Below are positions 19,401-48,270 of a stretch of 54,412 bases of DNA, piece after piece. Under the pieces are notes generated by a model. It had not been told where the DNA came from. It worked only from the letters and a program-made list of their open reading frames with translations, and searched no databases. Every line of letters starts with the position of its first letter. Positions within the stretch are counted from its first letter, which is position 1. A program made the position numbers and the translations under genes. Source of the DNA: a virus (taxonomy: Duplodnaviria; Caudoviricetes); IMG/VR virus record IMGVR_UViG_3300025168_000113, positions 1 through 54,412 of that record. One strand, written 5' to 3'.

Positions 19401-19940
19401 ATTGTTGAAGTTTTAGATGGAAAAGGTAATGATGTTACTAGTAGATTTACTTTAACAGAGCATACAGCCGGACCTCCCTCTCAGTTTAGAATAAACACTA
19501 ATTATAACTTCTTACATTGGGCAGACAACGATTTAAATAAGTTTACTTTTTACATGAAGATAACTGAAGCAGCTTCCACTATTGTTAGTTATAAAAGTAT
19601 AGGACCTATAAGCTTGCTTAACAGTCCTCCAACTTTCGTTGGACTTGGAACAACATTTAGTTTGACTACAGCTGGAGGAGTAGTTACAAATGTTTCTGCT
19701 ACTAATGGAAGTGCTAATACTTCTTTAAACAAAAAAGAATTAACTTTTGATATAGCTTCACAAGCGTTAGGAACAACACCGGTAAGTTATTTTACACTAG
19801 GACCACAAACAACAGAAGGTACTGTTCAACTTATGACTACTTCTACTATACCTGCAGGAACTTACTCTGTGTCCTTGAAAGTTACAGATGGTGGAGGATC
19901 TTCTATAACATCAAGTGTTATTACTGTTAAAGTAACTTAG
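16482..19940 (+). CDS. Tail nozzle/stabilisation protein, N-terminal part
   Basis: Start MNKDLDDRL...EYRDAQN...GALEN and LLFWTDNRNQPRKIN beta-propeller-like motifs; Ig/cadherin-like C-terminus. Confidence 0.65.
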   Translation: MAEAKNTFIKSKMNKDLDDRLIHNQEYRDAQNVAVSRSEDADVGALENVLGNISVTDFGYSVNDQIDIIGKYTDLDNDRVFVFLTNFIDTSADRLSVHTNDGSFSNVKCAIGVYNINSTTYNILVEGAFLNFSKTHIITGVNLLENLLFWTDNRNQPRKINITSALNDSTYYTLEHQISVAKYYPNTAAVLIKNETLTVGGDDYTDYFSTMRDMTSNLLPDNATNNPFGPSELGANWEGDADFLKEKFVRFSYRFKFEDNEYSLLAPFTQICFVPEQDGYFLAKKNQASGVPDQEDVDVAYKDTEVRFMRNKVNQITLMIPPPTNGVTSGLWSDADAVFKIKEIQIIYKEANGLALYLIDKISKEDFTSATTTALNLHRLPYIYNSQKPYKVLPNDEIVRVSDRVPLRAASQEVSGNRVIYGNYIDKGTPPKTLNYQTSVAVKGALQGDGTANPSAITSPIRKEYQNHTLKQNRSYDTAIVLSDLYGRQSVPIPTSQANGKASTIFHNYKQSSFSDGDSISAGNLYSATDTWPGDCLRMIFYDVIPSSIADEGYPGLWSESNPTGWYSYKVVVKQKEQEYYNIYFPGVLVGSTNPNNPSVAGTLPGQDNPISYMVLHSDNINKVPRDLKTVGPEQALFRSGNKPEKPNFQEYVLAQMGGNVQSAESLTNILTNYNQLVEEAEKRIKEREDELARFENASVELYPRVYNWTTNLNTRQAYPYVVGKNLIPEDIVTIGTGRDLDLINGSGTVSGIEIISGGGIYTSPVPSPQTLGGGSGTGLNVALTDVGGVVTSVSITNGGSGYKNGDIVQMTYPAQTAPFETATFKVTVAEPDPQFYDSKSNPLLGKIRTQNTEWGKTAVDGMGPTLAVYETKPVNSNIDLYWETSTSGDVSSLNTDILANTTEICTGWGGLTGGTTVTNYSTDIVPLNVTGSPSGFVEAQSVGYQVTGTNSGDFVAVNNTGGVKTALNCDMSIVEVLDGKGNDVTSRFTLTEHTAGPPSQFRINTNYNFLHWADNDLNKFTFYMKITEAASTIVSYKSIGPISLLNSPPTFVGLGTTFSLTTAGGVVTNVSATNGSANTSLNKKELTFDIASQALGTTPVSYFTLGPQTTEGTVQLMTTSTIPAGTYSVSLKVTDGGGSSITSSVITVKVT

Positions 19941-19973
19941 TAATAATATTTTAAAATAAGTGATAATTTAATT

Positions 19974-21779
19974 ATGGCGTACGGTATAGATATAAAATAT
20001 TTTAATTCCTTCTGGTTAAAGAAAGCTACAAAGAACTATGGTGGAAGCACCGATGTAAAGTCATCCACATGGCCTGGGCTTCCATGGAATCCTTTTGATA
20101 AAGTACTAGCAAATGCATTTCCTGTTTTTCCATATGGGACTGGGGCCACACCTGGTGAATTTGCTGGAACTACTTCTACTCCAGTAATTCCATTTGCACA
20201 GAACTGGTTTGTAGAAGAAAGTAGAATTAGAGGAGGATATAATAACATGTCAGTAGATCTTGGAGCTAGGGCTTACTTAGTAGATCCAGAGAGCAAACAA
20301 GTACATAGAAAAAGTTCTTTAATATACTCAGGTATTTTTAATTCTAGAACAGGTATAAACGAGACTAATCAATTTTCAACCGGTGTAGATATAACTAGAA
20401 GTTTAGATCCAGCTCAAGGATCAATTCAAAAATTATACACAGAAGATACTAACTTAATAATATTTCAAGAAAACAAAGTTAACAGAGCTTTAATAGATAA
20501 AGATACTATATATACTACTGAAAGTGGTACTGCCACTCAATTAATGGGCGCTGTTATAGGGCAAATTGTTCCATATTTAGGTGAATATGGTATAAGTGAC
20601 AATCCAGAATCTTTTGCTATTTTTGGTTATAGAAAGTATTTTTGTGATAGATACAGAGGTGTTATATTAAGATTATCTAGAGATGGTATAACAGAAATTT
20701 CTCAATACGGAATGAGGGATTATTTTAGAGATTATTTAAGAACTGTACCCAATGATTGGACTTTAGGTTTAATATCTTTTCCCGTTACTGGATCTCCTAG
20801 TGGAAACTCTATAAGTATATTATCAGACAGTTATCCTAATATACCTATAGGTGCTACACCTTATTTATTAACAAACGGTAATTTAGGACCTGTTGAAGTA
20901 GCTACTGGCACTCCTGGTAACTTTCAACAACCTGTTTACTTTGATTCAATAACCGATTTAGGTGGCGGTGTATGGAGATTTACTGTCCCTGGTGAAGGTG
21001 TAGATACTAATAGTGGTTTGTTCTGGAATGATCCATCTTTAAACATAACAGAATTGTATTTTGGTTATGAATATAAATCTCATATACCTGGTGCTTGGGA
21101 TAATCACAGCTACAATTATACACTATCTTTACAGTCAAAACCTAGATGGTTATCAACCGAATCTTCTACTTACAATACATTGTCATTTGATGAGTCTGTT
21201 TTAGGTTGGACTAGTTTTTATAGTTACAAACCTATTTTCATGGATAGCCTAAAAAATAGTTTCTATTCATTTATTGATTCAAACGTATATCAGCACTACG
21301 ATGAAATAACTCAAAATACGAGAGGTGTTTTTTATAGTGTGCGTAACGATTCAAATGTTACTTTAGTATTCAACCCTAACGTATCAATAATGAAGAACTT
21401 CCAAACAGTTTCGTATGAAGGAAGTAATGGATGGGAGGTTGATGAATTTAAGTCTGGGTTTGAAGGCACAGATTTTGTTAATTCGTTAAATCAAGAGTAT
21501 CAAGATACTACAGCAACTGTAAAAAGTTATTCCGAAGGTTTATATACTGAAAATGGAATACCTAACAGAGCAGGTTTTGATAGGAAAGAAAATAGATATG
21601 TAGCCAACTTAATTAACTCTAGTGCTGCAAGACCAGGTGAAATTATATTTGGCGCAGCTTCTAGTGGAATTAAAGGTTATTTTGCTACAGTTAAATTATC
21701 AACAGATGCCACAACTGATTTAGGTGGAATGAAAGAATTATTTTCAGTTGGATCTAAATTTGTGACATCTTCATATTAA
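19974..21779 (+). CDS. Tail nozzle/stabilisation protein, C-terminal part
   Basis: YGISDNPESFA...RLSRDGITEIS and WTSFYSY motifs typical of the C-terminal half of such proteins. Confidence 0.6.
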   Translation: MAYGIDIKYFNSFWLKKATKNYGGSTDVKSSTWPGLPWNPFDKVLANAFPVFPYGTGATPGEFAGTTSTPVIPFAQNWFVEESRIRGGYNNMSVDLGARAYLVDPESKQVHRKSSLIYSGIFNSRTGINETNQFSTGVDITRSLDPAQGSIQKLYTEDTNLIIFQENKVNRALIDKDTIYTTESGTATQLMGAVIGQIVPYLGEYGISDNPESFAIFGYRKYFCDRYRGVILRLSRDGITEISQYGMRDYFRDYLRTVPNDWTLGLISFPVTGSPSGNSISILSDSYPNIPIGATPYLLTNGNLGPVEVATGTPGNFQQPVYFDSITDLGGGVWRFTVPGEGVDTNSGLFWNDPSLNITELYFGYEYKSHIPGAWDNHSYNYTLSLQSKPRWLSTESSTYNTLSFDESVLGWTSFYSYKPIFMDSLKNSFYSFIDSNVYQHYDEITQNTRGVFYSVRNDSNVTLVFNPNVSIMKNFQTVSYEGSNGWEVDEFKSGFEGTDFVNSLNQEYQDTTATVKSYSEGLYTENGIPNRAGFDRKENRYVANLINSSAARPGEIIFGAASSGIKGYFATVKLSTDATTDLGGMKELFSVGSKFVTSSY

Positions 21780-35806: not shown

Positions 35807-36066
35807 TGAATGATGCTAGCTACGAAAAGTCTAATCGTAAGATGCGATCAGAACATAAAAGAGAAACAGGTAAAACGCTAGGTAAAAGACTTACGTCAGG
35901 TAAGAATAAACGTAGAGTTTCATTTGCTTGTAGATTTGCGGGTATGAAAGGACCTATGAAGAAACCTAATGGTGAACCAACTAGAAAAGCTAGAGCTTTG
36001 AAAAAGTGGGGTTTTGGAAGTGTAGGTGCTGCTAGTAAGTTTTGTAACAGCAATAAAGAAAAATAA
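35806..36066 (+). CDS. Small basic protein
   Basis: 86 aa, K/R-rich, RRVSFACR...ALKKW motif. Confidence 0.7.
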   Translation: MNDASYEKSNRKMRSEHKRETGKTLGKRLTSGKNKRRVSFACRFAGMKGPMKKPNGEPTRKARALKKWGFGSVGAASKFCNSNKEK

Positions 36067-36111
36067 AAGGAACAATAAGAAATGGGCACCATACCTAAAG
36101 TTCCTGTAACC

Positions 36112-36147
36112 AAAAAAGGGGATCTCAATACGAGGTCCCCTTTTTTT
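36112..36147. terminator. Bidirectional intrinsic terminator at the convergence of the two arms
   Basis: A6-GGGGATCTC-AATAC-GAGGTCCCC-T7. Confidence 0.9.
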
Positions 36148-36167
36148 ATTTGTGTATATAACTTTAG

Positions 36168-36290
36168 CTACTTAGGCTTAGTGTGCCCATAACCTTTGTT
36201 CTTTAATTCTAAATGTTTTTTATAAGTTTTAGCCATTGTAGAGCTTTTACCTTTATACATCATATGTGATTTAAATTTTTTAGTTGCCAT
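36168..36290 (-). CDS. Small basic peptide (40 aa), not in ORF track
   Basis: MATKKFKSHMMYKGKSSTMAKTYKKHLELKNKGYGHTKPK with an A-rich start context. Confidence 0.6.
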   Translation of the reverse strand: MATKKFKSHMMYKGKSSTMAKTYKKHLELKNKGYGHTKPK

Positions 36291-36300
36291 TGTTTTTATT

Positions 36301-38163
36301 TTAAGTTATTTCACAAGCTCCACCAGCACAAGCTAACTCGCCTGATAGATCTGTTTCATCTGTTGTTTCTACTATCTTACTAAGATCAACTTGGTTTAAT
36401 GACTCCATCATTATTTCATATTGAGATTTTTTAATGTCCTCAAATGGAGCTTGAGTGTAAGTACCACCGTCATAAGGTAATACAGATAAGCCGTTGTAAT
36501 GTTCTCTGTTATCCCACATCCATTCACCGGCTGGTTCCCACTCTTCAGGTTTCAAACTTATTGTTGCTGAAACATTATGAGTGTTAGATCCTTTTCTATG
36601 ACCTGGTTTAACCCATTCAGTAGCTATCTTCTTAACTCTTTCTAATAAATCAAAAGATGATTCAGTTCTAAGTATAGCACCTTCAGGAGATTTTTGAGGA
36701 ATAGATATTACAGCAGTATCGTGTGGCCTGAAATATTCATCTTCTATTAGTTCTGGGTGGTACGTACTTAGATAATTATATATAGCTTCGTTCTTACCAA
36801 CCCTGATCCTACGGACATAATAATTGTTATGCCATGCGTGAATACCAGATGATGTTCCTAACGCCAGAGATGTCGTCCCAGCAGGCTTCACAGTTGTACA
36901 TCGTGCAGCTTTATTAATTCCAATCAACTTCGCGACCCTTGTGTTTTCCCTTTTTACAACTTGAGCGGCTTTCTCCATGTCGTATCCTAACACCGTTCCA
37001 CTCCCGATCCCCGTCATGCTCACCCCAATCAGTGCGTCTTTTTCGGTTGTCTCTTGCCATATCTCTCTTAAATAGTGAAAGTCAGTATAGCCTGCTTGTA
37101 ACGTTCCAATGAACGCAGCTGCTTTGACTCTATTGTTTAAATCTTCTTGTGACTCAAGGTCTGAAACATTGACTTCACATAAGTTACAAAATTGATAAGG
37201 TCTTAATGCTATTTCACAGCACGGGTTTGTCCCCCAATCCTTATCGTTATTAAAGTAAATGCCAGGTTCACCAGCACCACTTTTTTCTACACGTTCCCAG
37301 AGTTTCATAAAAAATTCTTTAGTAATTTTATGTCTCATTAAACATGCAGAGTTATTAGCTCTACCTCTTTGTGGGTTTGTTTCCCACCAATCTCCAGATT
37401 TACAAGATATCATTTCATGATCGTCTGCTGAAAATAAAGATATTAACGCTGCTCTTCTGATACCACCTGCTAATACAGCATCTGCTATATGGCAAACGAT
37501 ATCATGAACTTCTACAGTTGTTAATTGATCTCCATCTTCTTTTGATTGTAGTATTCCTTTAAGCTTTACTAAACATTCTTTCAAAGGTTGTGGGCCAGGA
37601 GCTTTACCTCCTGACGTCACTAGTTGAGCTCCTTTCGGTCTTATATCTGAGTAATCAAAACTAATTCTTGACGATCTTTGACCACCCATATAAGACTTCA
37701 TTAATACTTTAATAGCATCAGCCCATCCTTCAATTGAATCACCAATAAGGAATCTTCTCCTGCGTTTTTCATACGGTTTGTTTATAGGAGGTAATTTACC
37801 TACATGATGGTTCTGAACAGAGTAGCCTACACCAGTTCCTCCCAGAAGTAAGAACATTACTTCATGGAAAGAATCAATGTGGTCAATAGGTAAGTAAGCA
37901 CAATTATATACTCTGTTAGGAGATATTTCTATAGGCTTACCACCAAATTGTAAACTACGCATACTAGGTAAAACCTTTTTCTCATATACTAACTTGTAAA
38001 CCTCATTTATTTGAGCCGCTAACTGCGGGTATGTTTTAATATGCATTGCTTTGTTTCTATCCACTAATTCCTCCCAGGTTTCCCTACGATTCTTTTCAGG
38101 TAGATACTTAGCATATTTCATATGTACTGTTATATTAGATAAGATCTCACTTGCTAGTTCCAT
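36301..38163 (-). CDS. nrdJ: Class II (adenosylcobalamin-dependent) ribonucleotide reductase
   Basis: LPSMR, YNCAY, TNPCCEI, FCNL, TTVKPAGT and C-terminal CAGGAC; no small subunit gene nearby. Confidence 0.9.
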   Translation of the reverse strand: MELASEILSNITVHMKYAKYLPEKNRRETWEELVDRNKAMHIKTYPQLAAQINEVYKLVYEKKVLPSMRSLQFGGKPIEISPNRVYNCAYLPIDHIDSFHEVMFLLLGGTGVGYSVQNHHVGKLPPINKPYEKRRRRFLIGDSIEGWADAIKVLMKSYMGGQRSSRISFDYSDIRPKGAQLVTSGGKAPGPQPLKECLVKLKGILQSKEDGDQLTTVEVHDIVCHIADAVLAGGIRRAALISLFSADDHEMISCKSGDWWETNPQRGRANNSACLMRHKITKEFFMKLWERVEKSGAGEPGIYFNNDKDWGTNPCCEIALRPYQFCNLCEVNVSDLESQEDLNNRVKAAAFIGTLQAGYTDFHYLREIWQETTEKDALIGVSMTGIGSGTVLGYDMEKAAQVVKRENTRVAKLIGINKAARCTTVKPAGTTSLALGTSSGIHAWHNNYYVRRIRVGKNEAIYNYLSTYHPELIEDEYFRPHDTAVISIPQKSPEGAILRTESSFDLLERVKKIATEWVKPGHRKGSNTHNVSATISLKPEEWEPAGEWMWDNREHYNGLSVLPYDGGTYTQAPFEDIKKSQYEIMMESLNQVDLSKIVETTDETDLSGELACAGGACEIT

Positions 38164-38374
38164 TCTGTTCTGCTTTCTTTTTTTCTTCTACTTCTTCTTC
38201 CATTTTAACTTTTAGTTTTTCAATGGCGTCTTCGTATCCGGGCATTAGCTTTAATGTTTCTAATGTTCCGACACCAAGTTCTCTAAGATGAGACGTTTCG
38301 TTAAATACATGTTGTAATAAACGTGTTAACGACTCAATTTTATTTTTCATTTCCAGTAATGTCTGTTCTTTCAT
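38147..38374 (-). CDS. Hypothetical protein
   Basis: 75-aa helical ORF in the operon. Confidence 0.6.
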   Translation of the reverse strand: MKEQTLLEMKNKIESLTRLLQHVFNETSHLRELGVGTLETLKLMPGYEDAIEKLKVKMEEEVEEKKKAEQNGTSK

Positions 38375-38510
38375 GGTATATGTTTATACACAAATCAACT
38401 AAGGGTAAGTAAAACACATGGGAGGTTTTTCCGCCAATCTGGCCTCCATAGGTTCTCATTCCGATTAATAAACCTGGATACAGACCTACACTCAAATCCC
38501 AATTTCTCAT
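38340..38510 (-). CDS. Hypothetical protein (56 aa), not in ORF track
   Basis: MRNWDLSVGLYPGLLIGMRTY...; fills a gap in the operon. Confidence 0.55.
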   Translation of the reverse strand: MRNWDLSVGLYPGLLIGMRTYGGQIGGKTSHVFYLPLVDLCINIYHERTDITGNEK

Positions 38511-38665
38511 TTATATTGTTTTTCAAATTCTATTAATTCTCTATATTTCAAATATCCTTTCTGTTCGATACTCCATTTAATAAACTTATCAACTTGTCTA
38601 TTTTTATATTGTATCCTAGCTACTGCTTTTTTCTGGATAGGATTAGTTCTATAGTTGCGTCGCAC
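38507..38665 (-). CDS. Hypothetical 52-codon ORF (GTG start, or -1 frameshift extension of the nuclease)
   Basis: Open frame ...ARIQYKNRQVDKFIKWSIEQKGYLKYRELI...; its TGA overlaps the next ATG. Confidence 0.5.
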   Translation of the reverse strand: MRRNYRTNPIQKKAVARIQYKNRQVDKFIKWSIEQKGYLKYRELIEFEKQYK

Positions 38666-39069
38666 TCTGTTCGATTTTGTGGTTTATAAATTGTATATCC
38701 AGGCAAATACATTTGGACATATCTTTTAAATAGTTTCCATCTAATAGGAAACGATTCATTAGGTCGACCTTTACATTCAATAATAAAGTCTTTACCTACA
38801 AAGTCAGGAGTGTATTTAATATTCTTTATATTTTTATCACCTCTGTTTTTAAAATCTCCTTTGCTATTTGCACATCTCTCGTATACATCGTTTTGAAATT
38901 TAAAACCATGTATTAGTTCGAAGGTCTCTCCTTCGTATTTAGCTTCTATACTAGCTTGTTTAAGTACTGTATACATATAAGCTTCTAAACCAGAAGCGAA
39001 AGAAAGACCATCAACGACGGTCTTCTTTGCTCTAACTGGTCCTTTCTTCTTTTTTTTACCCTGCCACAT
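38620..39069 (-). CDS. PD-(D/E)XK endonuclease, T7 endonuclease I-like
   Basis: FASGLE, YTPDF and IIECKG motifs. Confidence 0.75.
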   Translation of the reverse strand: MWQGKKKKKGPVRAKKTVVDGLSFASGLEAYMYTVLKQASIEAKYEGETFELIHGFKFQNDVYERCANSKGDFKNRGDKNIKNIKYTPDFVGKDFIIECKGRPNESFPIRWKLFKRYVQMYLPGYTIYKPQNRTECDATIELILSRKKQ

Positions 39070-39367
39070 CTGTTACGTAATAAGGTAAACCTGGATTGAA
39101 ACTACCTGAGCTAGCTTCTTGTAACTCTTCTTTAGCAGCTTGAATATATAATATTGCATCCATTAACTCTTCTTGAACATCATTGAGGTAACCTGCCAAA
39201 TCTTTATGTCCACCTGTTCTTTCGTCATGTAATGTCTTACCATACTTTTCAAAGCCAACATCTGATCTTGATACAAACTTATCTACTACTCTTTCAACCA
39301 CTGGGTCTCTAAATTTAATTGTCTTCTCTTTCATCTTTATCATCTTTAATCCACATAAATATCGCAA
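39056..39367 (-). CDS. Small all-alpha NTP-pyrophosphatase-like protein
   Basis: GFEKYG...VQEELMDAILY motif; true start is probably near 39334. Confidence 0.5.
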   Translation of the reverse strand: MRYLCGLKMIKMKEKTIKFRDPVVERVVDKFVSRSDVGFEKYGKTLHDERTGGHKDLAGYLNDVQEELMDAILYIQAAKEELQEASSGSFNPGLPYYVTDVAG

Positions 39368-39437
39368 ACAATCCTAGTAAAAACATTGCTCCGAACATTA
39401 AATACATTTGAGTAAACGCTGCTATCGGCTCACCCAT
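39315..39437 (-). CDS. Small single-TM protein (40 aa), not in ORF track
   Basis: MGEPIAAFTQMYLMFGAMFLLGLFAIFMWIKDDKDEREDN. Confidence 0.5.
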   Translation of the reverse strand: MGEPIAAFTQMYLMFGAMFLLGLFAIFMWIKDDKDEREDN

Positions 39438-40347
39438 TTTTTACAAATGTTCCGTTAACCATTTTGCCTTTACGGTTTTTGATCTCACCATAAGCAACAT
39501 CAATACAAGTTTCAATTGATGTTCCACCTAACATAGCCATATTAGTTAACACTACGACCATATCGCCTATAGCATCCATAAACTCTATGTCGTCCTCTTT
39601 AAGTATAGCTCTACCTAATTCGCCAGCTTCTTCCATAAGCTTACAGAACTGAGTTTTAGTATCACCTTTGTCATACAATCCTCTTTCATCTGCCCAATCC
39701 CTGATCTTTTGAAATCTATCTGTTTCTTTAACTTCTAGATCTTGATAAGTTTCACGTGTATTAACAGCTCGTGAATGTGATATTAATTCTGCCTGCATTG
39801 CTTCTATATGTTCTAACGCTTTAACAGCAGCTTCCTTAGCATTGACCTTGGCTTGTTTAAGGTTGTTGTTAACGAACTTCTCAAAGAAAGCTTTGTTATA
39901 AATATAGCTACGCTTTGTATCATACATCGATGCTTTAGCGTTGTTAACGATCCAATCGACCGTGTCTCTGTCTAACTCGAACTTACCAAAAACAGTTTCC
40001 CATGTTTCACCCATGTTGTCCATTAAATTACCTTTAAGTTTGTTTAAAGGATATGGAAATGTTGATGTCATTTCTGTTGCGTTTATTTTCATCTTTTTAC
40101 CTAAATTTTTATATTCTACTCTGTCAATCTTATAGCCATAAGACTGTTGAAGTTCTATCTCACGTTTTGATATATAATCTATATCGTCACTATGATCAAG
40201 AACTTCATATTCGTCTGGAAAATATCCCTGTTGTTTTGTTACCCTATTATTAAGATCACGTGTGACCCCAATCTTTTTACCCGGGATGTGGTATAAATAA
40301 TACATTATTTTATCCATAGTAATTTGCCTTTCTTTGTAATAAGCCAT
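39430..40347 (-). CDS. Fusion of a GIY-YIG-like N-terminus and a C-terminal MazG nucleotide pyrophosphohydrolase
   Basis: YYLYHIPGKKIGVT..L..R at the N-terminus; KLMEEAGEL...DAIGD...GTFVK at the C-terminus. Confidence 0.75.
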   Translation of the reverse strand: MAYYKERQITMDKIMYYLYHIPGKKIGVTRDLNNRVTKQQGYFPDEYEVLDHSDDIDYISKREIELQQSYGYKIDRVEYKNLGKKMKINATEMTSTFPYPLNKLKGNLMDNMGETWETVFGKFELDRDTVDWIVNNAKASMYDTKRSYIYNKAFFEKFVNNNLKQAKVNAKEAAVKALEHIEAMQAELISHSRAVNTRETYQDLEVKETDRFQKIRDWADERGLYDKGDTKTQFCKLMEEAGELGRAILKEDDIEFMDAIGDMVVVLTNMAMLGGTSIETCIDVAYGEIKNRKGKMVNGTFVKNG

Positions 40348-40993
40348 TCTTGTTTAAATCTCTCTCGTACAAATGTAAATTGTGTGCAAAGTGGAAATAT
40401 GAACCCAGTTCATATCCTGTCCTCTCTGCAACAACCTTCATCAGTTCTGAAAAACAATATTGATCGTTACAGAAACCGAACCAGAGATCATTAGATCGCA
40501 TCGTCACACACATCTGCAGTCTATTATTTACAACTGTAAACTGAACCGCGTATGTACATGGAGTATCTTTACGATACTTATTTATTTCTTTACCATCGTA
40601 TATTGATATTGCAGCTTTTCTAGTATTAGGGTTGTCTTTTAATTGTTGTACAACTTTATCTAGTTGATGAGCTCTTTCCCATTGATAACCATAATTAGAG
40701 TTAACTAATTTTTTAGGTCCTAAAGCCATACGTTCCCATATTGCAGGTACTTTACCATACAGCTCTCCTAGTTTATCAACAGAATCATCACCTGATAAGT
40801 ACCATTCCCATTCTGCTTCTGCATATTTTAAATTCCAATCCCTGTACCAAGTATCTATGTGATTGTCTGTTGGGTTGTTTATATAAAACCCTACATTGAA
40901 CATAGCTTTAGTACCATCAAAACCAACTCCGTGTTGATCTATAAGATTGTAATAGTATTCAAATGCTTTTTCTGCGTTTTTAAAATTCTCCAT
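40310..40993 (-). CDS. Thymidylate synthase superfamily enzyme, dCMP hydroxymethylase/methylase-like
   Basis: EWEWY, VNSNYG, DTPCT (catalytic Cys), MRSNDLWFGFCND and NLHLYE. Confidence 0.85.
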   Translation of the reverse strand: MENFKNAEKAFEYYYNLIDQHGVGFDGTKAMFNVGFYINNPTDNHIDTWYRDWNLKYAEAEWEWYLSGDDSVDKLGELYGKVPAIWERMALGPKKLVNSNYGYQWERAHQLDKVVQQLKDNPNTRKAAISIYDGKEINKYRKDTPCTYAVQFTVVNNRLQMCVTMRSNDLWFGFCNDQYCFSELMKVVAERTGYELGSYFHFAHNLHLYERDLNKNGLLQRKANYYG

Positions 40994-41248
40994 TTAATTA
41001 TATTTATCGTAGTAAAACTTGTAAAGCTCAAAAACTTTATCGTATAGCTCGTCTGGTCCGTAGCTTTTAGGACTCATTTGCTTTTTACCGTCTACTGTTA
41101 TTTGTATATCCCAGTCTCTATTTCTACTACCTGATGTACATGCTAAACAACCTATTGTTATTCCGTGGTTTATACACCAACTATAAGCTTCTAAGTTTTC
41201 TGGGTTACCCCAATCAGGGGGTTTTGGTTCTATTGTTTTTGCTGGCAT
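40994..41248 (-). CDS. Hypothetical protein
   Basis: 84-aa ORF in the operon. Confidence 0.6.
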   Translation of the reverse strand: MPAKTIEPKPPDWGNPENLEAYSWCINHGITIGCLACTSGSRNRDWDIQITVDGKKQMSPKSYGPDELYDKVFELYKFYYDKYN

Positions 41249-41702
41249 CTTCTTTTGGTTTTAATTCTTCTTTACTAACTAAAACATTATTTATTATTTC
41301 TTCATATTTTAGTGGTGGTATTGGCATCCAGTGCGTAATTGATTGACCGAAAAATGAATCGGCACCAAATGTATCCCACGCCCATGGTACCATATTGTTC
41401 CCGTGTTCATCTCCTTGTTTATAGGTATCACTTCTTAATCCACTAATCTTGTAAAATCCGTGGTCTTCTGCTGGACTATCTTGATAATCCTTGGAAGTGC
41501 CTTTCATTTCCTGCCGTTCTTTTTCACTAATTCCACGTACAAGTTTTACAACTACGGTATTTACATTTTCTTGGTCATCGCTATCGTGCCAAGTGCCTCT
41601 ATTGTGTTTTGCTAATACATATTTACCTTCTTCAGGTAATTTATCTTTTACGTTAATCCAACTCATCTTCTTTAACTTTAATTTCCATTTAGGTAGTTTC
41701 AT
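41214..41702 (-). CDS. DUF551-like protein
   Basis: WINVKDKLPE...ITHWMPIPP; start may be at 41666 (MSWINV). Confidence 0.6.
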   Translation of the reverse strand: MKLPKWKLKLKKMSWINVKDKLPEEGKYVLAKHNRGTWHDSDDQENVNTVVVKLVRGISEKERQEMKGTSKDYQDSPAEDHGFYKISGLRSDTYKQGDEHGNNMVPWAWDTFGADSFFGQSITHWMPIPPLKYEEIINNVLVSKEELKPKEDASKNNRTKTP

Positions 41703-41714
41703 CTTCTTTTGGTT

Positions 41715-43427
41715 TTAATCCCATGGCATTCTCTCTTCTAACTCAGGTTTAACTTCTGGTATGAAACAACCTGATTTATGTTCCCATGTAAAGAAAGCTT
41801 CTCCTTGGTTTTCACCTAGGTTTTGAAACTTAACTTTAAGAACTTTAACTTTAGTTGTTTTTTGTTCATAGTCTCTATGTACTAATAAACCGTGGTAACT
41901 AGCGTCATACCATTCACCACCACCTTTAATGTTGTACATTGTTGGTTCTTCAATCTTACCATCATTGTTCTTATACATCTTAGTAGGGTGAGCTACAATA
42001 AATACTAGTACATCATACTTTTTAGCAAATATTTCTATCTTAGTTAAGTACTCCATAGTATAACGATTAACATCTTCAGTTTGGCAATCAACATCTCTTA
42101 CTTTATTATAAGGATCTATTACTAAACATTTGATACCTTTACGTTTTACTAGCTCAGCACCTTTACGCAGTACAGACTCTAACGTGTATCTTTCCATATC
42201 TATAAAGAAGAAGTTGTCATTAATATGATCTGCCACTTCATTCCATTTAGCTTTACCTATATCGCACTTAGTAGGCATGTCACCCCATACTTTACGCATT
42301 AGCTTGTGAGCATGTAAATAAGTAGGATGGTTTTCAGGAGACGCAAAAGCAGTTTTCCAACCATAGTTTTGGTTATAGCCTACAACCATTTGATCCACCC
42401 AATCAGACTTACCTGATGAAGGAATACCGGTTACAGTTATAAACTGACCTGTATATGTACTAAATACATCATCAAAGTTTTCTAAACCTATTTGAAACCC
42501 AGGTTTAAACCCGTTTTCAACAAAATCAGTTATATCATCTTCAATGTCTCTAAACGTAGTTACGTTTTCTAGAGGTACAGGTTTTGCTTTAGTTATCCTT
42601 TCTTTTAACGCTTCTTTACCCTCTTTTAATAGGTATTCATTCGCGTCTTTGCAATCTTTAAAGTCTACTAAGAAACAAACCTCAGCGCCTAGTCTTCGTA
42701 TTAACTCAGCTTGTAAAGCTTGACCAGGAGCATCAGAATCAACCGCTAGTATTATCTTATCTTTATCGTCAAAATAATCTATACAGTTATCTAAGTAGTC
42801 TAAGTTATTAGTATTTAAGGTTGCGCCATTCGGAACTGAGATAGCGTTAGATATACCTGCCTCGTATAAGGCTAGAACATCCATTTCACCTTCGGTTATT
42901 ACACACCAATCGTGACCAACAGTGTTGTCTATATTATAAAATACTTTTTCAGCGCCTTTATATAATTTAAAATTCTTACGCCCATCTCTATATTTTATAT
43001 TTACAAGATTTCCACCTACAAAATAATTAAAGTGAATTGTATTTTCTGTTTTACCAGTTTGTGGCATAAACTCTTCACCTTCACCTACATGTAAATCTAT
43101 TAAAGTTTGTTTTGATATACCTCTAGTTTTAAACCATTTTTCTGCTTTTGTACTATTAATAGCATTATTAGGATGTGGAGGTGTAACATAAACTTTTTCA
43201 GCTTTACCTTTACGTTTGTAAGTGTGTAGTTGAAATGTTGAATCACAATTATGACAAGTACCTAATCCACGCTCCCAATCATAAGAAGCACATTTAGCTT
43301 TCTTATTTTCAGGTTTCCTAGAAGACGAACACAGGGGACAAGTCCCCTGCGATTTACCTGCTTCTAAGCCGTGCTGATTAAAGTTGTCAATTGTAAAACC
43401 ATTGATTTCTTTATCTTCGACTTGCAT
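41715..43427 (-). CDS. Primase-helicase (T7 gp4/Twinkle-like)
   Basis: Zn finger CPLC...CHNC, TOPRIM EGEMD and DSDAPG/KDANE, SF4 helicase TGIPSSGKS, LVIDPY and VAHP. Confidence 0.9.
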   Translation of the reverse strand: MQVEDKEINGFTIDNFNQHGLEAGKSQGTCPLCSSSRKPENKKAKCASYDWERGLGTCHNCDSTFQLHTYKRKGKAEKVYVTPPHPNNAINSTKAEKWFKTRGISKQTLIDLHVGEGEEFMPQTGKTENTIHFNYFVGGNLVNIKYRDGRKNFKLYKGAEKVFYNIDNTVGHDWCVITEGEMDVLALYEAGISNAISVPNGATLNTNNLDYLDNCIDYFDDKDKIILAVDSDAPGQALQAELIRRLGAEVCFLVDFKDCKDANEYLLKEGKEALKERITKAKPVPLENVTTFRDIEDDITDFVENGFKPGFQIGLENFDDVFSTYTGQFITVTGIPSSGKSDWVDQMVVGYNQNYGWKTAFASPENHPTYLHAHKLMRKVWGDMPTKCDIGKAKWNEVADHINDNFFFIDMERYTLESVLRKGAELVKRKGIKCLVIDPYNKVRDVDCQTEDVNRYTMEYLTKIEIFAKKYDVLVFIVAHPTKMYKNNDGKIEEPTMYNIKGGGEWYDASYHGLLVHRDYEQKTTKVKVLKVKFQNLGENQGEAFFTWEHKSGCFIPEVKPELEERMPWD

Positions 43428-43438
43428 ATTTAATTGTA

Positions 43439-43744
43439 TTAAAATGGTAGATCATCTTCTGCTTCTACCTTAGCAGTTGGTTTTTGAGGTTGGTCTCCAA
43501 AATTCGGCTCTGGAAAATCTCCATTAGTCCAAACTACTTTGACGTTGCCTAAATAGGTCTTTTCAACTTTAGCTTCTCTTTCCTCTTTGGATTGATCAAC
43601 TATCACTGGACCTTGATTACCAAACTGGTCTGCTTCATCGTTAATAGTTATTGTAATTGGAAGATACCTACCCTTTTTTCCTTTGTATATTTTCTCTTTT
43701 GGTATCGCGTCTAAATTAATATTCGCTTTCACTATTCCTGCCAT
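43439..43744 (-). CDS. Single-stranded DNA-binding protein (putative)
   Basis: Small beta protein with an acidic EDDLPF C-terminus, in the replication cluster. Confidence 0.65.
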   Translation of the reverse strand: MAGIVKANINLDAIPKEKIYKGKKGRYLPITITINDEADQFGNQGPVIVDQSKEEREAKVEKTYLGNVKVVWTNGDFPEPNFGDQPQKPTAKVEAEDDLPF

Positions 43745-43746
43745 AA

Positions 43747-44484
43747 TTATAAGGTTTCGTTAATAAAATATTGTTGAGGTTCAAAGTCCTCAGACTCGTG
43801 AAACAATTCATACATTTCACAAGCTTTTTCTAATTTGTCCTTGCCTGACTTGTAAAAGTCTGGTGAACAGTCGAACAAGCCAATCTTGCCCGTATTTTTA
43901 TCTATAGCTATAAAAACCATTTCATAACCAAACAGTTCTCTGTAGATGTATGCTTGAGAATCATAATTGTATTTCTTAGCATTCCATCTAAATTTATCTA
44001 AATCACTTGTGGTTTTTAAGTCTATGATAAGTTGTTCCTCGTGGTTTAATATGTCAGCTTTACCTTTCCACATTTGACCATTGATCTCTGCAATAGCAGG
44101 TTCTTCGTAGTCTACATCTGCAACTGTTGGTGATATTAAGTCTCTACAAACATTGTTGTTCATCATCTTATCTACTAGAGCTTCGATCATATCAACTTCA
44201 TGCTGTAATAAACATAACTCACCGCCTGACATTTCTTTGTACACTTTAGTATTTCTACTACTTGATTCTATTATCTTGAAACTTTTTATTTTGTCAGGTT
44301 CTAGAATCGCTGTATGGAAATAACCACCTACTAAGAAGTTTGGATTGCTTTTAGTAGGTTTATGTAAGTCCAGAGGATTTTTAAGTAACGTTTTGATATT
44401 AGAATTGCTTAGATATTGTTGTCCAAACTCGCCATAGTAATGTTCGTCTATTCGTAACTTATCTATTATTTCTTGTTTTTTCAT
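43747..44484 (-). CDS. RecE/ExoVIII-like PD-(D/E)XK exonuclease
   Basis: LSNS, G..FHTAILEP, KGKAD, IIDLKTT and YDSQAYIY. Confidence 0.8.
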   Translation of the reverse strand: MKKQEIIDKLRIDEHYYGEFGQQYLSNSNIKTLLKNPLDLHKPTKSNPNFLVGGYFHTAILEPDKIKSFKIIESSSRNTKVYKEMSGGELCLLQHEVDMIEALVDKMMNNNVCRDLISPTVADVDYEEPAIAEINGQMWKGKADILNHEEQLIIDLKTTSDLDKFRWNAKKYNYDSQAYIYRELFGYEMVFIAIDKNTGKIGLFDCSPDFYKSGKDKLEKACEMYELFHESEDFEPQQYFINETL

Positions 44485-46924: not shown

Positions 46925-47416
46925 TTAAAAACCTACCAATTCCACCCATGGAATTTCGGTATATATTTTTTCGTCTTTATTTGCTACTGTATGCTTTTCG
47001 CCTATGTAGTAATTCCAATAAGCTATAGTTGATAATTCATCTTTGTACTGATCAGGCATACATTGTGGTGGTTGGGTAAAACCTGTACAGGCTAAGCCAC
47101 CTGGTAGTATATTAAGTTTATCTTTACATTTAGTATAAGATAAATGCTCTTTGTTGTATCGCTTAGTATATTCTTCAGATAGTGCAACAAAATGGTCATA
47201 CAACCACGCGTAGTTTTGAGCTGATCTTCTCACCCATACTGTTGATGGATGGTTAACATGTGCACTTTTATAAGGTACATCTGCGTCCTCTCCCATTATA
47301 CAGTGATGTGCTGTACATAGCATTTGTGCTGATTCTAAGACCATCTTAACAACGTGTTTGTTGTATTGTACCTTAGCTGCGATAACTGGGTCTCTGTGTA
47401 AATAAAATATATTCAT
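46925..47416 (-). CDS. Pyrimidine-dimer DNA glycosylase/endonuclease V family protein
   Basis: MNIFYL...KHVVKMVLESAQMLCTAH...HVNHPSTVW...EYTKRY; start placed at MNIF. Confidence 0.75.
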   Translation of the reverse strand: MNIFYLHRDPVIAAKVQYNKHVVKMVLESAQMLCTAHHCIMGEDADVPYKSAHVNHPSTVWVRRSAQNYAWLYDHFVALSEEYTKRYNKEHLSYTKCKDKLNILPGGLACTGFTQPPQCMPDQYKDELSTIAYWNYYIGEKHTVANKDEKIYTEIPWVELVGF

Positions 47417-48270
47417 TCGTAATTTCTTAAACATTTAAATAATGGGTGTCTGTAAGAACCTGCTTGAGTTCGTTGAAAATAAGTGAATGTAGCTATCTTA
47501 CCAATATAATCGTGTATATTTTCTAGTAGCTTAGCCATATCTTCGTAGTCGTAACCTTTACCAGGTGGACAACCGAATATATTACCATCTTCATCTTCCA
47601 TAATAAACTTACCTAGTGTACCTTCACGCTTACCTTTACCTACTTCGTAGTTAATAATTGTAGCTTCAGCATCATGGAAGTCTTTGAACTTCATAAGATC
47701 CCATGATCTAGTACCTTTATATAGTCCATTAGGATTTCTATAAATTGAGCCTTCATAACCTGCTTTTAATGCTTTATTATGTATATCTTTTGCGGCTTCT
47801 AAAGAATTAACTTTATGTGTTCCAACAGTACGAACCTGTTTCATGTTTAAAAACAAGCCGTTAGCATCTATTATATCAATTATATGATCTAGTCTTTCTT
47901 CATAAGTTGGAGATAGAACATCCTCTAACGGAACTATATCATATACGTGATATTGTACTAACTTTTCAGCTTCTTTTCTGTGTTCAAATGTAGGTTTAGT
48001 CTTTCTTACTAATGAAATAATCTTTTCGAAATCATCTTTTAGTTTGTGGTTGTACAGTTCGCCATCTAATCTAATGTATGGGTATTTTTTAAACAGTGGT
48101 TTTAATGTTTCTATAATGTGCTCTACATTTTTAAACTCTTTCCCTGTTCTAGAAAAAGCACCTTGTTTTGTAAATACACATCTAACTCCATCAAGTTTGG
48201 GTTGCATAAGAGCAGGAAATACTGCTTTATCAGGATTGAACTTGTGTGCTAACATTGGTTTTATTGTCAT
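47413..48270 (-). CDS. Minimal ATP-dependent DNA ligase
   Basis: KPMLA, QPKLDGVR, LDGELY, YDI, EGSI and LMKFK motifs. Confidence 0.9.
   Translation of the reverse strand: MTIKPMLAHKFNPDKAVFPALMQPKLDGVRCVFTKQGAFSRTGKEFKNVEHIIETLKPLFKKYPYIRLDGELYNHKLKDDFEKIISLVRKTKPTFEHRKEAEKLVQYHVYDIVPLEDVLSPTYEERLDHIIDIIDANGLFLNMKQVRTVGTHKVNSLEAAKDIHNKALKAGYEGSIYRNPNGLYKGTRSWDLMKFKDFHDAEATIINYEVGKGKREGTLGKFIMEDEDGNIFGCPPGKGYDYEDMAKLLENIHDYIGKIATFTYFQRTQAGSYRHPLFKCLRNYE

What the first reader, a model, noticed from the sequence alone, without database searches (positions are those of the whole stretch)
39056..40993. Probable cytosine-modification pathway likely to be mislabelled as thyA
Seen: the TS-family protein has MRSNDLWFGFCND, VNSNYG and EWEWY. 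Established: dUMP-specific ThyA has Asn at the last position (E. coli RSCDVFLGLPFN177), while T4 dCMP hydroxymethylase gp42 has Asp (RSNDVVFGFRND179) and the NSNYG motif. Directly downstream are a MazG-domain protein and a second all-alpha NTP-PPase-like ORF, which could remove dCTP. No glycosyltransferase, dNMP kinase or DNA polymerase is recognisable in the window. Inference: the genome may carry 5-methyl- or 5-hydroxymethyl-cytosine as anti-restriction, possibly incorporated by the host replicase. An alternative is dTMP synthesis through methylated dCMP.
Basis: partly seen in the sequence, partly recalled or inferred. Interest (0 to 1): 0.75.

Follow-up and report, generated by a model that had tools for sequence, protein, structure and literature searches.

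The report
Phage dCMP hydroxymethylase with MazG partner
A marine phage gene that looks like thymidylate synthase has the active-site pattern of the phage T4 enzyme that makes 5-hydroxymethyl-dCMP, so this phage probably swaps cytosine for a modified base to escape host restriction enzymes; this is a known trick seen here in a new, very common phage group.

Summary
ORF 40310-40993(-) is a 227-aa thymidylate-synthase-family protein (Pfam PF00303, E 4.6e-27) containing the quoted motifs. Alignment with enzymes of known product gives the T4 gp42 pattern: catalytic Cys146, Asp at ThyA-177 (cytosine), Asp three residues before the Cys (ThyA-143; acidic in hydroxymethylases), Thr147, Asp169 kept (Asn marks 5-hydroxy-dCMP synthases), and no ThyA C-terminal segment. 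An AU test rejects grouping with ThyA or with the Xp12/PaMx74 dCMP methylases (p 0.002 each). I read it as a dCMP hydroxymethylase, not ThyA and probably not a methylase.

The next ORF is a real MazG pyrophosphatase with intact metal ligands, fused to a conserved GIY-YIG/T5orf172-like N-terminal domain. The claimed second NTP-PPase (103-aa ORF) could not be confirmed.

The TS-MazG pair is kept in 80 of 80 related IMG/VR loci. No DNA polymerase, dNMP kinase or glycosyltransferase was found in the window. The extra region of one complete relative held none either, and no family A or B polymerase or T4-gp1-like kinase turned up in the complete relatives searched.

TS homologues with Asp177 are already linked to cytosine-modified metaviromes (eLife 2021). 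This is therefore a new member of a known kind. There is no chemical evidence on the DNA itself.

The parts
40310..40993 (-). Thymidylate-synthase-family protein, 227 aa; predicted dCMP hydroxymethylase (5hmdCMP synthase)
   Evidence: PF00303 E 4.6e-27. Best PDB matches are MilA CMP hydroxymethylase 3.2e-19, B. subtilis ThyA 4.2e-16 and T4 dCMP hydroxymethylase 5.7e-15. Signature: Asp at Cys-3, C146, T147, S167, N168, D169, N176, D177. No ThyA C-terminal segment.
39430..40317 (-). Fusion protein, 295 aa from Met11 (the ORF is open from 40347): GIY-YIG/T5orf172-like domain, conserved middle domain, long helix, MazG domain. It overlaps the TS stop by 8 nt.
   Evidence: Relatives align from residue 11-16 onward. 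AF2 model has pLDDT 85.8. A homologue is present in 80 of 80 related loci, mostly directly after the TS gene (in a few, 275-1103 nt downstream with the orf103 homologue in between).
40138..40305 (-). GIY-YIG/T5orf172-like N-terminal domain (residues about 5-60 of the 295-aa form)
   Evidence: The model shows beta-beta-alpha-beta-alpha. Y6, Y9, K15, G17, T19, R25 and E53 are invariant in 26 sequences. ESM Atlas score is 0.98 to clusters in which 11-12% of members carry PF10544 T5orf172. BFVD rows named GIY-YIG have E 8.8e-3 to 2.8e-2. No Pfam hit.
39469..39732 (-). MazG (all-alpha NTP pyrophosphohydrolase) domain, residues about 196-283 of the 295-aa form
   Evidence: phrog_715 E 3.4e-29. PDB profile hit 1vmg 2e-07. 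VIA Z 9.7/9.3/9.3 to 1vmg, 1yvw and 7yh5. E229, E230, E233, D248 and D252 are invariant.
39056..39343 (-).
   Evidence: Present in 74 of 80 related loci. phrog_11184, unknown function, 1.3e-08. No Pfam or PDB match. Model pLDDT 63.9, best fold Z 4.7.
38620..39069 (-). DUF1064 / Holliday-junction-resolvase-like nuclease, syntenic neighbour
   Evidence: PF06356 8.2e-09; phrog_190 7.7e-14; present in 73 of 80 related loci.
36301..38163 (-). Ribonucleotide reductase (class II-like), at the downstream end of the same minus-strand gene block
   Evidence: phrog_367 9.5e-134; PF21995 RNR-II insertion domain 3.8e-07; present in 35 of 80 related loci.
41715..43427 (-). Primase-helicase, the only replisome enzyme recognised; upstream of the TS gene
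   Evidence: phrog_239 2.2e-82; Toprim and DnaB_C Pfam hits; 41.9% identical to Cellulophaga phage phi10:1 primase/helicase.

Best explanation
The 227-aa protein is a folate-dependent dCMP 5-hydroxymethylase of the T4 gp42 type. Cys146 attacks C6 of dCMP, Asp177 reads the cytosine N3/N4 face, methylene-tetrahydrofolate gives its carbon to C5, and water (not hydride) resolves the exocyclic methylene, yielding 5-hydroxymethyl-dCMP. The co-transcribed, overlapping next gene supplies a MazG pyrophosphatase. This most likely hydrolyses dCTP to dCMP, which removes the competing normal nucleotide and feeds the hydroxymethylase. The phage RNR upstream in the pathway supplies deoxynucleotides. Host kinases and the host replicase, helped by the phage primase-helicase, would then put 5hmC into phage DNA as protection against restriction. 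Shown here: family membership, the active-site signature, MazG fold and ligands, conserved synteny, and the absence of recognisable polymerase, kinase or glycosyltransferase genes. Inferred: the product, the dCTP specificity of MazG, phosphorylation by host enzymes, and that virion DNA is modified.
For: Signature. The query matches T4 gp42 at D(Cys-3), C146, T147, M165, R166, S167, N168, D169, G173, N176, D177, W80, Y94, E58, H207 and Y209. ThyA (E. coli, RB69 td) has L, H147, N177. The 5mC enzymes Xp12 and PaMx74 have N at Cys-3, P147 and D177, and keep a ThyA-like C-terminal segment. RB69 gp48 (5-hydroxy-dCMP) has N169. The dUMP hydroxymethylases (SPO1, M6, ViI, phiW-14) have D at Cys-3 but N147 and N177. 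These positions are the diagnostics given in NAR 2026 PMC13326640 (sections read) and eLife 2021 PMC8670742 (section read). Ser167 and Arg126 are the deoxyribose-preferring residues according to the MilA abstract. The signature holds across the family: 118 of 120 nearest cluster representatives have DxPCT, and 120 of 120 have RSND...G..xD. In the tree, the clade sits with T4 gp42 and the Bacteroides phage homologues. The AU test rejects a clade with Xp12/PaMx74 (p 0.0018) or with ThyA (p 0.0018). MazG evidence. The TS-MazG pair is present in 80 of 80 related IMG/VR loci, including 4 loci (L047, L056, L064, L067) that lack matches to the primase-helicase, orf103 and DUF1064 genes found beside it in the other loci. 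MetaGPA reports that TS domains co-occur with PRA-PH (MazG-like) domains on cytosine-modified contigs (passage).
Against: There is no chemical or sequencing evidence on the DNA; all 24 public runs found are kept only as contigs. No dNMP kinase was found, whereas T4 needs gp1 for hmdCMP. The T4 gp1 search gave 0 of 5 records, but it had no positive control and is insensitive. MazG is common in phages without a TS: 1042 phage records match the C-terminal third only, and Cellulophaga phage phi10:1 has a standalone MazG in the 15.7 kb examined, so its dCTP specificity is a guess. There is no detectable similarity to T4 gp56 dCTPase (BLASTP E 0.13). Support for the T4 gp42 grouping is weak (26/35 for the node; 84/64 for the wider group), with very long branches. 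A clade with the RB69 5-hydroxy enzyme is not rejected (p 0.145). The position-143 rule rests on few characterised enzymes. MAFFT put a gap in that column, so I read it by counting back from the Cys.
Confidence: 0.6

Rival explanations
1. It is an Xp12-type dCMP methyltransferase. The DNA would carry 5-methylcytosine, and part of the methyl-dC pool might be deaminated to thymidine nucleotides.
For: Asp177 is shared with Xp12 and PaMx74. Five of seven metavirome TS homologues tested in the 2024 preprint made 5mdCMP (passage).
Against: The query has D, not N, at Cys-3 and T, not P, at 147, and it lacks the C-terminal segment that ThyA, Xp12 and PaMx74 keep. The AU test rejects a joint clade (p 0.0018). 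No dCMP/dCTP deaminase appeared in the Pfam scans of 49 window ORFs.
Confidence: 0.08
2. It is a flavin-dependent 5-hydroxy-dCMP synthase like RB69 gp48 or DLP3 gp80.
For: It shares D177, T147 and an acidic residue at Cys-3 with RB69 gp48. A joint clade is not rejected (p 0.145).
Against: The diagnostic D169N change (section read) is absent: D169 is kept in the query and in 120 of 120 relatives. G173 and W80 are also of the folate-enzyme type, where RB69 has V and I. No glycosyltransferase was found.
Confidence: 0.05
3. It makes 5hmdCMP, or hydroxymethylates ribo-CMP, but the product is not built into phage DNA. It might instead disturb host pools, or be converted further, for example to 5hmdUMP.
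For: No phage kinase, polymerase or DNA-level modifying enzyme was recognised in the window or in the extra 13.6 kb of complete relative G001. No family A or B polymerase and no T4-gp1-like kinase (4 complete relatives plus the window) were found. The best PDB match is MilA, a CMP enzyme.
Against: Ser167 and Arg126 are the dCMP-preferring residues, where MilA has Ala and Lys. No deaminase was found. E. coli polymerases and kinases do incorporate such nucleotides at low level when only the TS homologue is expressed (section read).
Confidence: 0.12
4. It is an ordinary, divergent ThyA that makes dTMP for an AT-rich genome (32-37% G+C).
For: It hits Pfam and PHROG families named thymidylate synthase. 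The genome is AT-rich.
Against: N177 is D, H147 is T, L143 is D and the C-terminal closing segment is missing. The AU test rejects a clade with ThyA (p 0.0018).
Confidence: 0.03

Closest known systems
Phage T4 gp42 dCMP hydroxymethylase (PDB 1b49/1b5d/6a9a)
   Same: Same family and near-identical active-site strings: MRSND..FGF.ND, NSNYG, Asp three residues before the catalytic Cys, and Thr after it. Both have a short C-terminus. In T4 the gene works together with a dCTPase (gp56; record note).
   Different: The two are distant: phmmer E 5.7e-15, and the T4 end branch in the tree is 5.8 changes per column. The query has 227 aa against 246. The window has no gp1-type kinase, no alpha/beta-glucosyltransferase and no phage DNA polymerase. 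The dCTPase candidate shows no sequence similarity to gp56.
Bacteroides phage BF486P2-group TS homologues (GenBank OP172667, annotated deoxycytidylate 5-hydroxymethyltransferase)
   Same: They are the closest homologues among isolated phages (49% identity over 93% of the query). They have the same DTPC(T) and RSND...G..ND signature.
   Different: That phage has two TS homologues and a dUTPase, and no homologue of the GIY-YIG-MazG fusion or the 95-aa protein near them. The GenBank name is an annotation; I found no experiment.
MetaGPA metavirome TS homologues with Asp177 (eLife 2021, PMC8670742)
   Same: Asp at 177 and a non-His residue at 147 mark TS genes on contigs enriched for modified cytosine. 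Those genes co-occur with PRA-PH/MazG-like domains.
   Different: Those contigs often also carry deaminases or carbamoyltransferases, and none was found here. I could not check whether this lineage was among their contigs.
Xanthomonas phage Xp12 / Pseudomonas phage PaMx74 dCMP methyltransferases
   Same: TS family with Asp177, acting on dCMP.
   Different: They have N at Cys-3, P147, a retained ThyA-like C-terminal segment, and a separate, well-supported clade next to ThyA.
MilA CMP hydroxymethylase (PDB 5b6d/5jnh)
   Same: Best-scoring solved structure (E 3.2e-19). It shares D at Cys-3, T147 and D177.
   Different: MilA has Ala and Lys where the query, T4 CH and TS have Ser167 and Arg126; these residues set ribo against deoxy preference (abstract). 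MilA also has an extra C-terminal region (325 aa).

Membership tests
T4 gp42-type dCMP hydroxymethylase | Thymidylate-synthase fold/family | tested here: met
   PF00303 E 4.6e-27, above the cut-off; 124 PDB TS-family sequences matched.
T4 gp42-type dCMP hydroxymethylase | Catalytic Cys (ThyA C146) plus Y94, E58, R166, H207 and Y209 | tested here: met
   All are present in the alignment.
T4 gp42-type dCMP hydroxymethylase | Asp at ThyA position 177 (cytosine instead of uracil) | tested here: met
   D in the query and in 120 of 120 relatives.
T4 gp42-type dCMP hydroxymethylase | Acidic residue at ThyA position 143 (lets water in: hydroxymethyl, not methyl) | tested here: met
   KDTPC in the query and SDFMC in T4, against ALAPC in E. 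coli and KNVPC in Xp12, counted back from the Cys in the block. 118 of 120 relatives have DxPCT. MAFFT itself left a gap in that column.
T4 gp42-type dCMP hydroxymethylase | Asp169 retained (folate chemistry; Asn marks 5-hydroxy-dCMP synthases) | tested here: met
   RSND in the query and in 120 of 120 relatives.
T4 gp42-type dCMP hydroxymethylase | Produces 5hmdCMP from dCMP and methylene-THF | not testable with these tools
   Needs an enzyme assay or in vivo LC-MS.
Canonical ThyA (dUMP methylase) | Asn177, His147, Leu143 and the C-terminal closing segment | tested here: not met
   D, T, D and an absent segment. AU test p 0.0018 against a joint clade.
Xp12-type dCMP methyltransferase | Shares the Xp12/PaMx74 signature (N at Cys-3, P147, ThyA-like C-terminal segment) and their clade | tested here: not met
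5-hydroxy-dCMP synthase (RB69 gp48 type) | D169N substitution | tested here: not met
   D169 is kept.
MazG / all-alpha NTP pyrophosphohydrolase (C-terminal domain of the 295-aa protein) | Four-helix MazG fold with EExxE...D metal ligands | tested here: met
   Z 9.7 to 1vmg, rmsd 2.4, 81 aligned. Profile E 2e-07. E229, E230, E233, D248 and D252 are invariant. Pfam is just under its cut-off.
dCTPase function (T4 gp56-like role) | Preference for dCTP/dCDP | not testable with these tools
   No sequence similarity to gp56 (E 0.13). DCTPP1 appears among the fold matches, but so do HisE and MazZ.
GIY-YIG superfamily / T5orf172 (N-terminal domain) | Beta-beta-alpha-beta-alpha core with Tyr, Gly, Arg and Glu catalytic residues | tested here: inconclusive
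   Topology and invariant Y6, G17, R25 and E53 fit. Atlas score 0.98 to clusters with 11-12% T5orf172. BFVD GIY-YIG rows have E about 1e-2. No Pfam hit. hhalign to T4 DenA gives probability 1.7%.
NTP pyrophosphohydrolase (the 95/103-aa ORF) | MazG-like fold or profile match | tested here: inconclusive
   No Pfam or PDB profile match. hhalign to the MazG alignment gives probability 1.1%. The model has low confidence and the best Z is 4.7.

The most novel reading that the evidence does not exclude
The conserved GIY-YIG/T5orf172-MazG fusion may be a two-in-one 'cytosine exclusion' enzyme. Its nuclease domain would cut unmodified, cytosine-containing DNA (the job of T4 EndoII/DenA). Its MazG domain would destroy dCTP (the job of T4 gp56). 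Together with one hydroxymethylase, this would let a polymerase-less, kinase-less phage replace C by 5hmC using only host kinases and the host replicase. That would be the smallest pre-replicative DNA-modification system known.
Probability: 0.15. Interest if true: 0.7.

Novelty: new member of a known kind. Interest (0 to 1): 0.42.

Why it matters
If correct, a very abundant group of marine phages carries 5hmC or a derivative. The group probably infects Flavobacteriia. Such modification would affect host restriction, CRISPR targeting, and how well these viruses are recovered by some sequencing and cloning methods. It would also show that a T4-style pre-replicative pathway can run without a dedicated kinase, polymerase or glucosyltransferase. 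Annotation pipelines that call these genes thyA would hide all of this.

Tried and rejected
Megablast of 36000-44000 against isolated phages found nothing.

BLASTP of T4 gp56 against the MazG fusion and the 103-aa ORF, and of the two window proteins against each other, gave only chance-level matches.

For the 103-aa ORF as an NTP-PPase, I tried Pfam, a PDB profile, hhalign against the MazG alignment and a fold search on a low-confidence model. None gave support. Ten of 26 homologues weakly hit EncFtn-like (best E 0.0084), which I do not trust.

hhalign of T4 DenA against the fusion aligned only the YIG..R motif at probability 1.7%.

The T4 gp1 protein search of the window and 4 complete relatives was empty, but it had no positive control.

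A profile search of the PDB with the whole fusion found no GIY-YIG entry at E <= 1. Both PDB fold searches were filled by the MazG domain, so the N-terminal domain was barely tested there.

The protein search with residues 1-150 of the fusion returned near-identical relatives for all but the first of the 120 listed rows (62% identity, the only MazG Pfam label), and none carried a Pfam label for that region.

In the sister loci, the 315-aa protein has no PDB match and the Atlas gave no family for it.

Literature: searches, and a term search inside PMC8776804, found no paper on this clade or on 5hmC in Flavobacteriia phages.

Public runs: 24 runs in 17 studies hold part of the stretch (one at 0.89 of the sampled words, the rest at 0.21-0.34), and all are labelled as marine, seawater or viral metagenomes or carry no organism label. 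All are kept as contigs, which cannot show base modification, so I did not lay reads. I make no habitat claim from the unlaid rows.

Not used: complex prediction, the search of protein representatives, read laying.
Full report
**What is there.** The window is a whole IMG/VR virus record of 54,412 bases, estimated 84% complete, with 32-37% G+C. Structural genes lie on the plus strand up to about 35.7 kb. A minus-strand replication and nucleotide block runs from 36.3 kb to the end.

The finding lies in that block. The order along the minus strand is:
- primase-helicase (41715-43427)
- DUF551 protein
- an 84-aa ORF
- the TS-family ORF (40310-40993)
- a 305-aa ORF (39430-40347)
- a 103-aa ORF (39056-39367)
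- a DUF1064 resolvase-like protein
- small ORFs
- ribonucleotide reductase (36301-38163)

Exonuclease, Erf, a sigma factor and an ATP-dependent ligase lie further upstream.

By primase-helicase similarity, the closest isolate is Cellulophaga phage phi10:1 (41.9%), followed by Tenacibaculum, Riemerella and Flavobacterium phages. This fits a Bacteroidota host.

**Checking the observation.** The three quoted motifs are present, and the E. coli and T4 strings quoted for comparison are correct against fetched sequences. The protein is a clear TS-family member (PF00303 E 4.6e-27). Its best solved relatives are MilA CMP hydroxymethylase (3.2e-19), B. subtilis ThyA (4.2e-16) and T4 dCMP hydroxymethylase (5.7e-15).

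**What the enzyme most likely makes.** I fetched TS homologues of known product:
- E. coli ThyA and RB69 td (dTMP)
- T4 gp42 (5hmdCMP; record note)
- RB69 gp48 (5-hydroxy-dCMP)
- Xp12 and PaMx74 (5mdCMP)
- SPO1, M6, ViI and phiW-14 (dUMP hydroxymethylases; these labels are recalled)

Two papers supply diagnostic positions. N177D switches the substrate to dCMP. H147 differs on modified contigs. L143 to D/E goes with hydroxymethyl products, and D169N marks flavin-dependent 5-hydroxy-dCMP synthases.

In the alignment the query has C146, D177, T147, D169, N168 and N176, plus Asp three residues before the Cys. That is the T4 gp42 pattern. ThyA has L/H/N. Xp12 and PaMx74 have N at Cys-3 and P147. 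RB69 gp48 has N169. The dUMP hydroxymethylases have N147 and N177.

The query, T4 gp42 and RB69 gp48 also lack the C-terminal segment that ThyA, Xp12 and PaMx74 retain. Ser167 and Arg126 are the residues that favour deoxy-CMP over CMP according to the MilA abstract (alignment).

The pattern is stable in the family. Of the 120 nearest cluster representatives (63-95% identity), 118 have DxPCT and all 120 have RSND...G..xD.

A maximum-likelihood tree of 22 sequences puts the clade with T4 gp42 and the two Bacteroides phage homologues. Support is weak and the branches are long. AU tests reject a clade with Xp12/PaMx74 (p 0.0018) and with ThyA (p 0.0018), but not with RB69 gp48 (p 0.145). The groups were named after the first tree had been seen, which weakens these tests somewhat.

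**The neighbours.** Relatives of the 305-aa ORF align from residue 11-16, so the protein probably starts at Met11 (295 aa) and overlaps the TS stop by 8 nt. The AF2 model (pLDDT 85.8) shows four parts:
- an N-terminal beta-beta-alpha-beta-alpha domain
- a second small alpha/beta domain
- a 45-residue helix
- a C-terminal helical bundle

The bundle is a MazG domain. The evidence is phrog_715 at 3.4e-29, a PDB profile hit to 1vmg at 2e-07, and fold matches to MazG, HisE, S-2L MazZ and DCTPP1. The EExxE and D..GD ligands are invariant.

The N-terminal domain looks like a GIY-YIG superfamily member of the T5orf172 kind. It has a KIGxT motif and invariant Y6, G17, R25 and E53. The Atlas score is 0.98 to clusters partly labelled T5orf172, and there are weak BFVD matches named GIY-YIG. 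No curated profile confirms this.

Among isolated phages, only the C-terminal third of the protein has matches: 1042 records, none covering 80% of the query.

The 103-aa ORF (probably 95 aa) is conserved and helical, but could not be linked to any family.

**Conservation.** 472 of 473 IMG/VR stretches that matched a query peptide pattern encode a relative of the TS protein, and 80 loci were kept. Presence of each neighbour in those 80 loci:

| Gene | Loci with it (of 80) |
|---|---|
| GIY-YIG-MazG fusion | 80 |
| 95-aa protein | 74 |
| DUF1064 | 73 |
| primase-helicase | 69 |
| RNR | 35 |

Many loci are cut by contig ends, so these are lower bounds.

Four loci (L047, L056, L064, L067) keep the TS-fusion pair, with the fusion only 37-38% identical, and lack matches to the primase-helicase, orf103 and DUF1064 neighbours. 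The pairing is therefore not merely shared recent ancestry.

**What is missing.** Pfam scans of 49 window ORFs found no DNA polymerase, nucleotide kinase, deaminase, methyltransferase or glycosyltransferase. Five relatives rated 100% complete have no family A or B polymerase (0 of 5 each).

One of these, G001, was read in full. Its extra 13.6 kb encodes a GroEL-like chaperonin, an amidase, a holin and structural proteins, so the missing 16% of the window is probably of that kind.

**Comparison with what is known.** This is the T4 scheme (hydroxymethylase plus dCTPase) reduced to two genes. TS homologues with Asp177 are already known to mark cytosine-modified phage contigs and to travel with MazG-like domains. 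The finding is therefore a new member of a known kind.

What is less usual is the fusion of MazG to a nuclease-like domain, and the apparent reliance on host kinases and the host replicase.

**Limits.** Nothing here measures the DNA. All public runs holding the stretch are kept as contigs. The MazG substrate and the nuclease activity are guesses. Supplementary files of the cited papers could not be opened.

Noticed in passing
L056:5131-8143 (also L047, L064, L067): In a sister lineage, four genes sit directly upstream of the same TS-MazG pair. They are an 89-aa ORF, a 315-aa protein, a 303-aa protein with a weak phosphatase-like hit, and a PLP-dependent enzyme. The 315-aa protein's N-terminal 35-105 resembles the N-terminal domain of T4 beta-glucosyltransferase (hhalign probability 79.5%, E 1.5e-05; Pfam PF09198 at 22.8 bits, under its cut-off), and its C-terminal part has a GDSH motif like SGNH hydrolases. 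This could be a 5hmC hypermodification cassette. It is absent from the window.
   Followed up: partly
window 39430-40317 (-), residues 1-150: MazG is fused to a conserved GIY-YIG/T5orf172-like domain and a second small domain of unknown fold. This architecture was not seen in isolated phages, where only the MazG part matches.
   Followed up: partly
window 16482-21779 (+): Two large structural proteins hit the crAss-like phage muzzle protein families (PF25731 E 2.6e-09, PF25729 E 4.6e-08), suggesting a crAss-like tail architecture.
   Followed up: no
L108:5398-6960 (complete relative G001): A GroEL-like chaperonin (PF00118 E 1.7e-55) lies in the 13.6-kb region that the window lacks, next to amidase and holin genes.
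   Followed up: no
L002 (Bacteroides phage BF486P2, OP172667) 5156-5917 and 7989-8669: This isolated gut phage carries two TS homologues, both with Asp177 and Asp at Cys-3, with a dUTPase between them. Both are annotated as dCMP hydroxymethyltransferase.
   Followed up: partly
window 39315-39437 (-): The 40-aa hydrophobic ORF between the MazG fusion and the 95-aa gene has a match in only 1 of 80 related loci, so it is probably not a conserved gene.
   Followed up: partly
window 46925-47434 (-): A 169-aa protein matches the pyrimidine-dimer DNA glycosylase family (PF03013 E 5.9e-06; phrog_624 E 2.4e-49), next to an ATP-dependent DNA ligase.
   Followed up: no
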